A stretch of DNA of 64,000 nt from Thermoplasmata archaeon (GTDB taxonomy: Archaea > Thermoplasmatota > Thermoplasmata > Lutacidiplasmatales > UBA184): the NCBI GenBank assembly GCA_028864975.1, contig JAGWLG010000004.1:82192-146191 (forward strand). The letters are read 5' to 3'. The notes beneath the pieces are model-generated. The model worked only from the letters and a program-made list of their open reading frames with translations, ran no database searches and was not told where the DNA came from. Made by a program: the position numbers and the translations under genes. This document shows, piece by piece, positions 37,389 to 39,538 of the stretch. Every line of letters starts with the position of its first letter. Position 1 is the first letter of the stretch.

Positions 37389-38777
37389 ATGTCCTCGATG
37401 GTCTCGCCCGTGCCCACGGCCCCCTCTGCCTCTCACGGACCGCCGACTTCCAGCGGAACGTCAGGGCCGGGCCCCCGGCCCCGCCCCTCGTGGCTCCGTT
37501 CCTTCTCCCAGTTCGACCGCCGGATCTACCTCATGGGCGTCGGAGCGTTCGTGCGCTCTTCGGGGAGGAGCGCGAGCTGGCTCTTCCTGCCGCTGCTGCT
37601 CTACCTGGGGTATGGTCTCCCCTACGACGAGATCGGGTTGCTGACCGCCGTCATCGTTCCCGTCGCGATCGCGGCGAACTGGCTGGGCGGCGCGGCCGCG
37701 GACCGCTGGGGTCGGCGATGGCTCTCCACCGCGCCCCCCTTCGTTGCCGCGGCCACCTTCTCGCTCCTCTACCTCTACTGGCACGTCTCGCTCGGGCTGC
37801 TCATGGGGCTCTGGGCGCTCAACAGCCTCATGATGAACCTCCAGACGCCGGCGCAGAACGCCGTGATCGGGGACGTCACCCGGGCGGACCTGGCCGTTCA
37901 GGGGTTCAGCTTCCAGCGGGTCCTCTCCAACGCGGGGTTCGCGCTCTCTCCGGCCCTTGGCGGTCTCCTCGCGGCCTCCCATGGGCTTCCCATCGTCTTC
38001 GCGATGGCGGCGACAGGCTCGGCGCTCGAAGGACTGCTCCTACTCGCGTTCCTTCGAGAGAGCCGTCCGCGCTCCTCCTCCGAGGACCCCGTTGACGACG
38101 CTGGGACGGGGAGGAGGCTCCTCGAGACCCGTCCCTGGAGGGGCGGCCTGGTCGAGCCCTTCCGCGACCGCTCGCTGGTGCTCTTCGGCGCCGTGGGGTT
38201 CGGGCTGACGCTGGCGACCCAGCAGTTCGGGACCGCGCTTTCGCTCTATCTCCGGACCTCGCAGTCACTCCCTTTCGACCAGATCGGTGCGATCTACTCC
38301 TTGAACGGGATCCTGGTGGTCCTGCTGCAGCTCCCCATCTCTCTCCTGATGAGGAAGCGCCCCCTCTCCTGGCTCGCCGTGGGTTCGCTGCTCTACGGAG
38401 CAGCCTTCGTGATCTTCGACGCCTCGGCGGGGTTCCTCTTCGACCTAGGGGCGATGACGGTCCTGACCATCGGGGAGGACGTCACGAGCCCGCTCCAGAA
38501 CTCGGTCGTCTCCGGGCTCGGGGGGTCGAAGAGGAGAGGAGGATACTTTGGGGCCTTCAATGTCTTCACCCAGGCCTCTCGGGTGGTGGCTCCCCCTATG
38601 GGCACCCTCCTGCTCGCCGTGAGCGCGACGGCACTTTGGGGGACCTCCGCCTCCATCGCGGTCCTGGCCGCCGCAGGGTATCTCCTGCTCCAGCGGGCGC
38701 GAGGAGAGCGGTTCGAGCCCCCGATGGCGAAGGAGGCCGGGCCGGGAGTCGGGCTTGCCACCGCGAAGCCGGGCTGA
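37389..38777 (+). CDS. Major facilitator superfamily transporter
   Basis: 12 TM pattern, GAAADRWGRR motif A. Confidence 0.92.
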   Translation: MSSMVSPVPTAPSASHGPPTSSGTSGPGPRPRPSWLRSFSQFDRRIYLMGVGAFVRSSGRSASWLFLPLLLYLGYGLPYDEIGLLTAVIVPVAIAANWLGGAAADRWGRRWLSTAPPFVAAATFSLLYLYWHVSLGLLMGLWALNSLMMNLQTPAQNAVIGDVTRADLAVQGFSFQRVLSNAGFALSPALGGLLAASHGLPIVFAMAATGSALEGLLLLAFLRESRPRSSSEDPVDDAGTGRRLLETRPWRGGLVEPFRDRSLVLFGAVGFGLTLATQQFGTALSLYLRTSQSLPFDQIGAIYSLNGILVVLLQLPISLLMRKRPLSWLAVGSLLYGAAFVIFDASAGFLFDLGAMTVLTIGEDVTSPLQNSVVSGLGGSKRRGGYFGAFNVFTQASRVVAPPMGTLLLAVSATALWGTSASIAVLAAAGYLLLQRARGERFEPPMAKEAGPGVGLATAKPG

Positions 38778-38879
38778 AGGCCCACCGAGCGGGACGGAAC
38801 CCGGAAGGGAGGACGGGCCCCCGTCGCCCAGGCGAAGCCATCACCGTTATCTCGGGGACATCATCCGACCCCTGGGGCT

Positions 38880-38997
38880 GCCGAGGTGGCTCAGACCGGT
38901 ACGGCGCGAGCCTGGAAAGCTCGTGGTGGATCTCCACCGCGGGAGTTCAAAGACCGACGGGGACTCCCCCCGTCGATGGAAAGTCTCCCCCTCGGCG
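38880..38997 (+). tRNA. tRNA-Ser(GGA) with 32-nt intron in the T-loop (59/60; intron 38952-38983)
   Basis: Acceptor GCCGAGG/CCTCGGC, discriminator G, anticodon stem CGAGC/GCTCG with GGA at 38914-38916, long variable arm GGTGG/CCACC, T-stem GGGAG/CTCCC interrupted by a hairpin intron forming a relaxed BHB; TTATCT box ~30 bp upstream. Confidence 0.93.
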
Positions 38998-39043: not shown

Positions 39044-39538
39044 ATGAACATCGATCCCGCTCGCGCTGAGCGCGCGCTGGAAGAAGGAAAGGCGCTGCTT
39101 CGGGGGGCCCCGCGGAACGCGGCGTTCACCCCGCTGTGCCAATGGCTTCGCAAAGGATTCCCGCAGTACAACTGGGTCGGGGTTTACCTCCTCGAAGGTC
39201 AGGAGCTCTCTCTCGCCGCGTGGGATGGCGAGAACGCGACCGAGCACACGACCATTCCTCTCGCGATGGGCATCTGCGGGATGGCCGCCCGCGAGAAGCG
39301 CACGATCAACGTGAAGGACGTCCGCAAGCGACCGGAGTATCTCGCATGCTTCCTCGAGACCCGCAGCGAGATCGTCGTGCCGATCATGGACGGGAGGACG
39401 TGCCTGGGGGAGATCGACATCGATGGGAAGACCGAGGGGGCCTACGACGCCTCGGACGAGAGCTTCCTCGAGCGTCTCGCGGTCGAGCTGGTCCCGTTCG
39501 CCCGAGCGGAGCTCAGGTCCTCATCCTCGAGAGCTTGA
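39044..39538 (+). CDS. msrC: GAF-domain free methionine-R-sulfoxide reductase (fRMsr/YebR family)
   Basis: YNWVGVY, GICG, YLACF..RSEIVVPI, GEIDID. Confidence 0.82.
   Translation: MNIDPARAERALEEGKALLRGAPRNAAFTPLCQWLRKGFPQYNWVGVYLLEGQELSLAAWDGENATEHTTIPLAMGICGMAAREKRTINVKDVRKRPEYLACFLETRSEIVVPIMDGRTCLGEIDIDGKTEGAYDASDESFLERLAVELVPFARAELRSSSSRA

What the first reader, a model, noticed from the sequence alone, without database searches (positions are those of the whole stretch)
38880..38997. tRNA-Ser(GGA) with a non-canonical T-loop intron (59/60) in a probable Thermoplasmata genome
The 32-nt insert GACCGACGGGGACTCCCCCCGTCGATGGAAAG splits TTCAAA|T. It folds into outer helix GGGAG/CTCCC, 3-nt bulge AGT, 4-bp helix TTCA/GGAA (one mismatch), 3-nt bulge AAG and an 8-bp intron stem. 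Cleavage after the second nucleotide of each bulge restores a perfect T-loop. Introns outside 37/38 with relaxed BHB motifs are mainly known from Thermoproteales-type and DPANN archaea with broad-specificity endonucleases, whereas euryarchaeal/Thermoplasmatales homodimeric EndA prefers strict BHB. This implies an unusual EndA or a recently gained intron. Standard tRNA scans may miss it.
Basis: partly seen in the sequence, partly recalled or inferred. Interest (0 to 1): 0.8.

Follow-up and report, generated by a model that had tools for sequence, protein, structure and literature searches.

The report
Serine tRNA gene with T-loop intron
This is a real, and apparently the only, serine tRNA gene for UCC/UCU codons in an uncultured Thermoplasmata archaeon; a 32-base protein-spliced intron of a known kind splits its T-loop, most of its family has kept that intron, and no unusual cutting enzyme is needed to explain it.

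Summary
Window 38880-38997 is a class II tRNA-Ser(GGA) gene with a 32-nt insert (38952-38983) between T-loop positions 59 and 60. ARAGORN and Rfam miss the gene. ARAGORN calls it Ser(gga) once the insert is removed.

Intron-less orthologues in relatives carry exactly the predicted spliced T-loop. The intron form occurs in 30 of 36 family genomes examined (six of seven genera). The exons are almost invariant. The intron stem covaries: 7 of 10 pairs change on both sides, matched by 0 of 500 shuffles.

The motif keeps the 3-4-3 bulge-helix-bulge register. One position of the central helix is an invariant A57·G apposition, which also occurs in two canonical 37/38 introns of this genome.

The genome's only detected EndA is an ordinary two-unit (α'2-like) protein without the crenarchaeal specific loop. 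RtcB is present.

The intron is old, and genus g3 probably lost it.

No RNA data exist, so splicing is inferred.

This scan had already reported the same kind of intron in other tRNA genes of this genome. This is one more member. I found nothing in print for Thermoplasmata.

The parts
38847..38851 (+). AT-rich box (TTATC), 29-33 nt upstream of the tRNA 5' end. Inferred archaeal TATA-like promoter element.
   Evidence: By eye, an A/T-rich box (TTATC, TTATA, TAAGA or TAATA type) sits at a similar distance upstream in most of the 36 Ser(GGA) upstream regions printed. The surrounding DNA is otherwise GC-rich. A contig of a related strain in run X1 shows the same box (table 7). Promoter function is inferred, not tested.
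38880..38951 (+). 5' exon: tRNA positions 1-59. It holds the acceptor 5' strand, D-arm, anticodon arm (GGA at 38914-38916), long variable arm, T-stem 5' strand and T-loop 54-59.
   Evidence: Columns 1-72 of alignment A1 are almost all invariant.
38952..38983 (+). 32-nt intron at position 59/60.
   Evidence: Removing it gives an ARAGORN tRNA-Ser(gga) call. Intron-less orthologues have TTCAAAT at this place. The intron sequence varies between genomes while the exons do not.
38984..38997 (+). 3' exon: T60, T-stem 3' strand, acceptor 3' strand and discriminator G73. No CCA is encoded.
38946..38949 (+). Central helix H, exon strand (T54 T55 C56 A57). It faces 38978-38981 (GGAA) in the intron.
   Evidence: U54 faces A or G, U55 faces A or G, and C56 faces G in 28 of 28 distinct rows. 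A57 faces G in 28 of 28 rows, a non-standard apposition that never varies. The same 4-nt register holds in 9 of 9 T-loop introns of G000.
38950..38952 (+). 5' bulge (A58 A59 | G). The cut is predicted after 38951.
   Evidence: Register. The cut site is fixed by the intron-less orthologues. Cleavage itself is inferred.
38953..38977 (+). Intron helix h' (38953-38962 with 38968-38977) and its 5-nt loop (38963-38967). In G000 the second pair is a C·A mismatch.
   Evidence: 7 of 10 pairs change on both sides, and 94-95% of cells are paired. Pair 75-98 is unpaired in 3 of 28 distinct rows, G000's among them. predict the 8-bp core.
38978..38981 (+). Central helix H, intron strand (GGAA).
38982..38984 (+). 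3' bulge (A G | T60). The cut is predicted after 38983.
   Evidence: Cleavage is inferred.

Best explanation
Window 38880-38997 is a functional gene for tRNA-Ser(GGA), the tRNA for UCC and UCU codons. It is transcribed as a 118-nt precursor from its own promoter, in the gap between an MFS transporter gene and a small GAF-domain gene.

In the precursor, the T-stem, T-loop positions 54-57 and the last nucleotides of the insert build a bulge-helix-bulge motif in the same register as a standard anticodon-loop intron. T-loop 59/60 corresponds to anticodon-loop 37/38. The elements are:
- the outer helix, which is the T-stem;
- a 4-position central helix: U54-A, U55-A, C56-G and an A57·G apposition;
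- two 3-nt bulges;
- an inner 10-position intron helix.

The genome's single two-unit (α'2-like) EndA is predicted to cut after the second nucleotide of each bulge, and RtcB to join the halves. That restores the T-loop TTCAAAT.

The gene structure, its conservation, the covariation and the presence of the enzymes are shown here. Transcription, cleavage and ligation are inferred.

The intron is old. It is present in six of the seven sampled genera of the family and was probably lost precisely in genus g3.
For: 1. Gene identity.
- ARAGORN calls Ser(gga) after the insert is removed.
- The gene has a class II variable arm and G73.
- BLAST finds only one match to it in G000 (G000 row).

2. Splice product.
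- Ten intron-less orthologues of 84-86 nt all carry GGGAG-TTCAAAT-CTCCC (one with TTCGAAT). They are 4 genomes of genus g3 and 6 genomes of other families.

3. Conservation.
- The intron form occurs in 30 of the 36 family-f1 genomes counted (G000 included, G028 left out). It is intron-less in 4 and was not found in 2.
- The exons are nearly invariant.

4. Structure.
- No shuffle of 500 reaches the observed paired percentage, the number of double-changed pairs, or the covariation score.
- In h', 7 of 10 pairs change on both sides.
- 94.7% of cells are paired, against 43.6-55.6% when the partners are slid.

5. Same architecture elsewhere in G000.
- All 9 T-loop introns of G000 share it.
- The A·G apposition also occurs at the same place in two canonical 37/38 introns of G000, Met-CAU and Leu-UAA.

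6. Enzymes.
- One EndA ORF has two N+C unit pairs.
- RtcB scores 565 bits on the same contig.

7. Need for this tRNA.
- UCC plus UCU make up about 37% of serine codons in 769 long ORFs. This is an approximate ORF set.

8. The DNA is real.
- Contigs from 4 runs of 2 studies cover the stretch with no differences and no joint. Some of these runs may be the source of this assembly.
Against: - No RNA run holds the locus, so no spliced product has been seen.
- The nearest-neighbour fold of the T-arm plus intron does not form the 3-pair central helix.
- In G000 the 5' cut site is weakly framed. An A·G apposition lies on one side. A single A-U pair followed by a C·A mismatch lies on the other. My own strict motif scan therefore did not rank it.
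- The papers read say α'2 enzymes need a strict 3-4-3 motif. Whether an A·G in the helix counts as strict has not been tested.
- In the Thermoplasma-like complete genome G054, 5 of 6 canonical introns have four standard pairs in this helix and none has the A·G apposition.
- The assembly is 89.6% complete, so a second copy in the unassembled part cannot be excluded.
Confidence: 0.82

Rival explanations
1. The motif is truly relaxed. The EndA of this lineage has gained broad specificity by some means other than the known L1-L3 loop insertions.
For: - A57·G is invariant in the central helix.
- h' of G000 carries a C·A mismatch.
- The central helix is not predicted by folding.
- The genome holds at least 9 T-loop introns. 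Earlier notes of this scan report D-loop introns as well (not tested here).
- The N-terminal unit carries a class-wide conserved PRGG..KTPS.WWV stretch where the A. fulgidus enzyme has a gap.
Against: - Both 3-nt bulges and the 4-position spacing are in register in 28 of 28 rows and in 9 of 9 T-loop introns.
- There is no CSL-type insertion in the catalytic unit.
- The conserved N-unit stretch is also present in the out-of-family relatives G045, G059, G058 and G055, so it does not track the f1 intron.
- In the related genome G048 the same 59/60 site has four standard pairs in the helix.
Confidence: 0.15
2. The insert is a recent insertion and the gene is a decaying pseudogene. Another tRNA reads UCC and UCU.
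For: - Standard tools do not call the gene.
- ARAGORN labels a second gene, G000:C83:15780-15883, as Ser(gga).
Against: - The exons are invariant or nearly so across 31 copies from six genera, whose EndA proteins are only 45-59% identical to that of G000.
- The intron stem shows compensatory changes.
- An upstream box is conserved.
- The C83 gene has no counterpart in any of the 60 relatives. Its only good bulge-helix-bulge lies at 37/38 and would give the loop CCGAAGA, not a GGA anticodon.
Confidence: 0.02
3. The insert is removed at another pair of sites (for example 58/59), or it is not removed and forms an expanded T-arm.
For: No RNA data fix the junction.
Against: - Only the 59/60 pair of cuts gives TTCAAAT, the T-loop of all ten intron-less orthologues (one with TTCGAAT).
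- Shifting the cuts by one nucleotide would make position 59 differ between genomes (columns 104-106).
- An unspliced T-loop would lack the conserved 7-nt loop.
Confidence: 0.03

Closest known systems
[quoted passage not shown] 2011, PMC3239211; passages read)
   Same: Same position (59/60, in the T-loop) and the same kind of protein-spliced bulge-helix-bulge intron. Like the Pro(GGG) case, both bulges are present.
   Different: The host enzyme there is the three-unit ε2 EndA with a specific loop and broad specificity. Here it is a two-unit α'2-like EndA without the CSL-type insertion. The host is Thermoplasmata, not DPANN. The central helix here has an invariant A·G apposition.
Canonical 37/38 archaeal tRNA introns cut by α'2 EndA (A. 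fulgidus, T. acidophilum; Hirata 2019 review, PMC6379350; passages read)
   Same: Same 3-4-3 register, built on a 5-bp stem plus a 7-nt loop. Same enzyme architecture. The same A·G apposition is seen in two 37/38 introns of this genome.
   Different: The motif is built on the T-arm instead of the anticodon arm.
Non-canonical and multiple introns of Thermoproteales and other TACK archaea (Fujishima and Kanai 2014 review, PMC4033280, passages read; Kaneta et al. 2018, PMC5829648, passages read)
   Same: Many tRNA genes per genome are interrupted outside 37/38. The same tRNA carries introns at different places in related lineages.
   Different: Those lineages have (αβ)2 EndA with the L1 loop, and many of their motifs lack a bulge. 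Here no such loop was found and both bulges are kept.

Membership tests
Archaeal protein-spliced (bulge-helix-bulge) tRNA intron | Two 3-nt bulges on opposite strands, each holding a splice site after its second nucleotide | tested here: met
   The register is fixed in 28 of 28 distinct rows and in 9 of 9 T-loop introns of G000. The cut sites deduced from the intron-less orthologues fall after the second bulge nucleotide on both sides.
Archaeal protein-spliced (bulge-helix-bulge) tRNA intron | Central helix of 4 base pairs between the bulges | tested here: inconclusive
   Three standard pairs (U-A or U-G, U-A or U-G, C-G) plus an invariant A57·G. The helix is not formed in the minimum-free-energy fold. 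The exon strand is invariant, so no change on both sides is possible.
Archaeal protein-spliced (bulge-helix-bulge) tRNA intron | Flanking helices h and h' | tested here: met
   h is the T-stem: 5 pairs, 100% paired. h' has 10 pairs, 7 with changes on both sides. G000 has one C·A mismatch at the second pair of h'.
Archaeal protein-spliced (bulge-helix-bulge) tRNA intron | Excision restores a standard tRNA | tested here: met
   ARAGORN calls Ser(gga), 86 nt, after removal. The product's T-loop is identical to that of intron-less orthologues.
Archaeal protein-spliced (bulge-helix-bulge) tRNA intron | Splicing endonuclease and RtcB ligase encoded by the host | tested here: met
   EndA at G000:C53:49115-50236. 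RtcB at G000:C104:51240-52547, 565 bits.
Archaeal protein-spliced (bulge-helix-bulge) tRNA intron | The spliced product exists in cells | not testable with these tools
   No listed run that holds the locus is on record as RNA.
Relaxed motifs (hBH, HBh', BHL) that need a broad-specificity EndA | One bulge disrupted or missing (definition from PMC5829648 and PMC6379350; passages read) | tested here: not met
   Both bulges are present in register. In G000 the A·G apposition and the C·A mismatch loosen the 5' side, so this is borderline by energy but not by register.
tRNA-Ser, class II | Long variable arm, discriminator G73, serine anticodon | tested here: met
   5-bp variable arm, G at 38997, GGA at 38914-38916. 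That G73 and the variable arm are serine identity elements is recalled knowledge, not a call.
α'2-type EndA | Two tandem EndA units (N and C domains twice) in one polypeptide | tested here: met
   PF02778 and PF01974 each match two stretches of the 374-aa ORF. Residues 44-355 align with the A. fulgidus α'2 chains 1r0v and 2gjw.
α'2-type EndA | No specific-loop insertion (L1/CSL) in the N-terminal part of the catalytic unit | tested here: met
   The A. pernix α chain 3p1z_B has about 10 extra residues around K44 that the query lacks. The query matches M. jannaschii 1a79 without a gap at that place. L2 and L3 were not checked by a structural alignment.
α'2-type EndA | Homodimer with narrow specificity | not testable with these tools
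   Needs the protein and an assay.

The most novel reading that the evidence does not exclude
A whole family, and probably much of the class, of Thermoplasmata runs many tRNA introns outside 37/38 on a plain two-unit EndA without any known specificity loop. Some of those motifs are loosened by a conserved A·G apposition. If so, the published link between EndA loop insertions and disrupted tRNA genes is not general. The invariant G opposite A57 or A35 may then be a lineage-specific recognition feature rather than a defect.
Probability: 0.3. Interest if true: 0.6.

Novelty: new member of a known kind. Interest (0 to 1): 0.35.

Why it matters
For annotation: common tRNA finders miss this gene, so genomes of this family look as if they lack tRNA-Ser(GGA) and at least eight other tRNAs. 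That distorts completeness and decoding estimates.

For biology: the reviews read here list disrupted tRNA genes for TACK, DPANN and a few methanogens, not for Thermoplasmata. They tie such genes to EndA types with loop insertions. This locus adds a well-supported case in which a non-anticodon intron sits in an essential tRNA of a lineage with a plain α'2-like EndA.

The simplest reading is that position does not matter to the enzyme as long as the 3-4-3 register is kept. That fits the known rule rather than breaking it.

The same tRNA carries its intron at 37/38, at 59/60, in the D-loop, at two sites, or nowhere in different families of the class. That makes it a useful marker for intron gain and loss.

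Tried and rejected
- Expression: the look-up of sequencing runs listed no RNA holder. This says nothing for or against expression. The 4 DNA runs I laid only show that the intron form exists as DNA.
- Own strict motif scan: it needs at least 2 contiguous h' pairs, so it did not rank the true site in G000, because of the C·A mismatch. I kept the site on comparative grounds.
- Second Ser(GGA) at G000:C83: rejected as a rival. It has no orthologue in 60 relatives, and its good motif at 37/38 gives another loop.
- ARAGORN's 'Ser(gga)' at C38 is the two-intron Lys(UUU) gene.
- Intron transposition: the His and Ser(GGA) intron cores are the most alike of 36 pairs (z = 3.3; 1 of 300 shuffles reaches the score). 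That is not significant after 36 tests.
- EndA insertion idea: the extra stretch relative to A. fulgidus lies in the structural N-terminal unit and is class-wide, so it does not explain a family-specific intron.
- Literature: I found no paper on non-canonical tRNA introns in Thermoplasmata in searches. The Lutacidiplasmatales paper has 0 occurrences of 'intron'. Marck and Grosjean 2003 and Tocchini-Valentini 2005a are not held, and supplements are closed, so tables there could bear on this.
- tRNAscan-SE and SPLITS are not available here.
- The GTDB family name was not obtained. That isolates AcS1-67 and SubAcS10-22, seen among the hits, belong to Lutacidiplasmatales is recalled, not shown by a call.

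Full report
**What is there**

Window 38880-38997 (+ strand) reads as a class II tRNA:
- a 7-bp acceptor stem;
- a 3-bp D-stem;
- an anticodon arm with loop CTGGAAA (GGA at 38914-38916);
- a 5-bp variable arm;
- the T-stem GGGAG/CTCCC;
- discriminator G at 38997.

A 32-nt insert (38952-38983) splits the T-loop between A59 and T60. The window is G000:C104:82192-146191, in a 3.61-Mb assembly of 124 contigs that is 89.6% complete. The assembly has 67.4% G+C.

ARAGORN finds no tRNA in the window, and with introns allowed it still does not list this gene. Rfam gives nothing at the gathering threshold. At a loose threshold Rfam gives a 22.2-bit partial match on 38880-38941 that takes the variable arm for the T-arm. 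tRNAscan-SE is not available here.

**Is it a tRNA gene?**

I scanned the genome for a T-stem followed by TTC, a matching 3' strand up to 140 nt further on, and a 7-bp acceptor pair. This gave 226 candidates. I removed each T-loop insert in five registers and passed the results to ARAGORN. The locus is then called tRNA-Ser(gga), 86 nt.

The same procedure finds eight more tRNA genes of G000 with a 28-41-nt insert at the same place: Ser-GCU, Lys-UUU, Gly-UCC, Arg-UCG, His, Ala-GGC, Asn and Asp. Two further rows look false: a 'Phe(aaa)' and a 'Leu(aag)' that each pass in only some registers.

All nine genes have the same layout:
- T-stem;
- positions 54-57;
- positions 58, 59 and one intron nucleotide as the first bulge;
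- the intron helix;
- four nucleotides that face 54-57;
- two intron nucleotides plus T60 as the second bulge;
- T-stem.

The second of the four facing nucleotides is G in 9 of 9 genes. The third and fourth are purines in 9 of 9.

**Relatives**

BLAST of the 118 nt against 61 genomes (G000 plus 60 relatives of the same class) gives one match in G000 and full-length matches in family f1.

Family f1, G000 included and the unpublished G028 left out (36 genomes):

| Form of Ser(GGA) | Genomes | Which |
|---|---|---|
| 116-118-nt intron form | 30 | genera g1, g2, g4, g5, g6, g7 |
| Intron-less, 84-85 nt | 4 | G005, G010, G020, G024, all genus g3 |
| No Ser(GGA) identified | 2 | G015 (93% complete), G033 (85% complete) |

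Six genomes of other families are also intron-less. All ten intron-less genes have GGGAG-TTCAAAT-CTCCC (TTCGAAT in one). In this sequence only one pair of cuts, after 38951 and after 38983, gives that T-loop.

Among the 24 genomes outside f1, I read the following by eye:

| Ser(GGA) in genomes outside f1 | Genomes |
|---|---|
| Insert right after position 37 | 11 |
| Insert at 37/38 and a 59-nt one at 59/60 (G048) | 1 |
| Insert of about 30 nt in the D-loop (G058; ends not determined) | 1 |
| None | 6 |
| Ser(GGA) not identified | 5 |

I checked the motif only for G048. There the 59/60 site has four standard pairs in the central helix and two 3-nt bulges.

**Structure**

On the alignment of 31 intron-bearing copies (28 distinct rows) I named the cloverleaf plus the bulge-helix-bulge and counted pairs.
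- 94.7% of cells pair, against 88.8% in shuffles (0 of 500 reach it) and 43.6-55.6% when the 3' partners are slid by 1-3 columns.
- 11 pairs change on both sides, against a shuffle mean of 6.9 (0 of 500 reach it).
- The intron helix h' carries the signal: 7 of its 10 pairs change on both sides, with 94-95% of cells paired.
- The central helix has U54 facing A or G, U55 facing A or G, C56 facing G, and A57 facing G in 28 of 28 rows. That is three standard pairs and one invariant non-standard apposition.
- The exon strand cannot vary, so this helix cannot show compensatory change.

The minimum-free-energy fold of the T-arm plus intron forms the T-stem and the 8-bp intron core but leaves the short helix open. 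In G000 and its closest kin the second pair of h' is a C·A mismatch (3 of 28 rows unpaired at that pair). Because of this, my own strict motif scan did not rank the site.

The A·G apposition is not special to the T-loop. Two canonical 37/38 introns of G000, in Met-CAU and Leu-UAA, have A35 facing G at the equivalent place. In the complete Thermoplasma-like genome G054, 5 of 6 canonical introns have four standard pairs, and the Met-CAU intron has A35-U. So the feature belongs to this lineage's substrates in general.

**Enzymes**

Pfam PF01974 finds two domains in one open frame of G000 and nothing else. The ORF (L001:1447-2571, minus strand, 374 aa) matches PF02778 and PF01974 in two stretches each.

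Comparison with solved structures:
- It aligns over residues 44-355 with the A. fulgidus α'2 chains.
- Its best match is the fused M. kandleri enzyme 5x89.
- Against the A. pernix catalytic subunit 3p1z_B, the query lacks about 10 residues around K44. By the passages of PMC5829648 read, that is the crenarchaeal specific loop.
- It aligns with M. jannaschii 1a79 without a gap at that place.

Fifty-nine of 61 genomes have a match to this protein, 57 of them a single match. In an alignment of 29 of these proteins, the regions I displayed show no length difference between family f1 and four out-of-family rows.

The stretch that looks like an insertion relative to A. fulgidus (PRGG..KTPS.WWV) lies in the N-terminal, structural unit and is conserved in all 29 rows. 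PMC5829648 says the structural units of Archaeoglobales and Thermoplasmatales carry a deletion in the C-terminal domain.

RtcB is present at 565 bits.

**What the papers say**

I read passages only; supplements are closed.
- PMC3239211 states that α4 and α2 types need a strict 3-4-3 hBHBh' motif. It describes 59/60 introns in ARMAN-2, one strict and one relaxed.
- PMC6379350 lists the A. fulgidus and T. acidophilum enzymes as narrow. It notes that the canonical motif also occurs in pre-rRNA and pre-mRNA.
- PMC5829648 ties broad specificity to loop insertions.
- PMC4033280 lists lineages with multiple-intron tRNAs and does not name Thermoplasmata.

None of the passages read makes position the criterion; the criterion is the shape of the motif. 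The motif here keeps that shape except for the A·G apposition. I therefore read the locus as a near-canonical motif at a non-canonical place that a plain α'2 enzyme can be expected to cut. This last step is inference.

**Age**

A maximum-likelihood tree of 29 EndA proteins (one gene) puts four out-of-family rows on one side with 100/100 support. It splits f1 into two groups:
- g2, g3 and (g1+g7), with 84/85 support, the branching within it unresolved;
- g4, g5 and g6, with 100/99 support.

Both groups hold the intron, and g3 lies inside the first. One gain at the base of the family plus one precise loss in g3 fits best. Two gains would need the same site, nearly the same length (32-33 nt; a few copies are 1-2 nt shorter) and shared intron positions: alignment A1 has invariant columns inside the intron. 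A recent gain is excluded either way.

**Need and context**

UCC and UCU make up about 37% of serine codons in 769 non-overlapping long ORFs. That ORF set is crude.

The gene lies between an MFS transporter gene (37389-38777) and a GAF-domain ORF. Inside that ORF, an ATG at 39044 lies in frame after the tRNA. By eye, an AT-rich box sits about 29-36 nt upstream in most of the 36 regions printed.

The closest relatives by EndA (73% identity) are records titled 'Thermoplasmata archaeon', from metagenome-assembled genomes.

The DNA holders with at least 0.87 of the sampled words are mine-drainage and soil metagenomes from two studies, and some may be the source of this assembly. The four runs I laid show the intron form without differences or joints.

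**Other candidate Ser(GGA) genes**

- ARAGORN labels G000:C83:15780-15883 as Ser(gga) with a 19-nt insert at 32/33. No bulge-helix-bulge fits that cut. A very good one (4 central pairs, 7 outer, 4 inner) fits a cut at 37/38, and that would give the loop CCGAAGA. The gene has no counterpart in any of the 60 relatives. It does not replace the window's gene.
- The 'Ser(gga)' at C38 is the two-intron Lys(UUU) gene.

**Verdict**

- The identity, the position and the taxon are supported.
- The inference of an unusual enzyme or a recent gain is not supported.
- The kind of intron is known (ARMAN-2, Thermoproteales). This scan had already reported the same kind in other tRNA genes of this genome. I re-derived six of those here.
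- What this report adds: the splice product is proved by intron-less orthologues; the intron stem covaries; the A·G apposition is invariant and shared with canonical introns; the CSL-type loop is absent on a direct alignment; genus g3 probably lost the intron; and the intron position in this one tRNA varies across the class.

Noticed in passing
G000:C83:15780-15883 (L097), outside the window: A class II tRNA-like gene with G73. ARAGORN calls it Ser(gga) with a 32/33 intron. Its only good bulge-helix-bulge (4 central, 7 outer, 4 inner pairs) lies at 37/38 and would give the anticodon loop CCGAAGA (GAA with C33). It has no counterpart in 60 relatives, not even in the same genus. It may be a strain-specific acquired or aberrant tRNA.
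   Followed up: partly
G000:C10:2785-2897 (L099) and G000:C81:10553-10664 (L100): Two paralogous class II-like tRNA genes share the acceptor stem and T-arm and have inserts around the anticodon. ARAGORN calls them Trp(cca) and Ala(cgc), which does not fit a long variable arm. My motif scan found no convincing splice motif in the anticodon region.
   Followed up: partly
G000:C6:96501-96615: ARAGORN calls this Arg(gcg). A canonical bulge-helix-bulge with a 44-nt intron gives the loop CTGTAGA, which is tRNA-Tyr(GUA), the otherwise missing tyrosine tRNA.
   Followed up: partly
Loci L083-L094, L050, L088 (relatives G037-G059): The same tRNA-Ser(GGA) carries its intron at 37/38 in 11 genomes. G048 has introns at 37/38 and 59/60, G058 has one in the D-loop, and 6 genomes outside family f1 have none. 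Intron position in this one tRNA turns over across the class.
   Followed up: partly
L041 (G038:C24) and L044/L095 (G050:C6): Other serine isoacceptors in other families also have T-loop inserts: a tRNA-Ser(UGA) with a 15-nt insert in G038, and a tRNA-Ser(CGA) with a 31-nt insert at 59/60 in G050.
   Followed up: no
G000 canonical introns at C6:72947-73050 (Met-CAU) and C104:69857-69972 (Leu-UAA), compared with G054 loci L189-L194: In G000 the central-helix position next to the 5' bulge is an A·G apposition in canonical introns too. In the Thermoplasma-like genome G054 the Met-CAU intron has a standard A-U there. This may be a lineage-specific substrate feature.
   Followed up: partly
EndA, L001:1447-2571 (-), residues about 125-145: The N-terminal (structural) unit has a stretch, PRGG..KTPS.WWV...SER, conserved in all 29 aligned Thermoplasmata EndA proteins. 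It lies where the A. fulgidus enzyme has a gap and seems to correspond to the catalytic-site region of the C-terminal unit.
   Followed up: partly
G000 T-loop introns of His (C93:18312-18417) and Ser-GGA (window 38952-38983): These two intron cores are the most alike of 36 pairs (z = 3.3; 1 of 300 shuffles). His and Asp come next. This is a weak hint of shared ancestry among T-loop introns and is not significant after multiple testing.
   Followed up: yes
window 38874, run X1 (table 7): A 638-base contig shares the first 30 nt of the tRNA. Upstream it runs into different sequence that keeps the GTTATCTCGGGG box. That upstream sequence is identical to the same-genus relatives G001 and G019a. 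So a sister strain is present in the same sample.
   Followed up: no
G019 (two copies: C151:493-610 and C217:160-276): This genome (7% contamination) holds two intron-bearing Ser(GGA) copies. One is identical to that of the genus g1 genome G001. This probably reflects contamination of the bin rather than a duplication.
   Followed up: no
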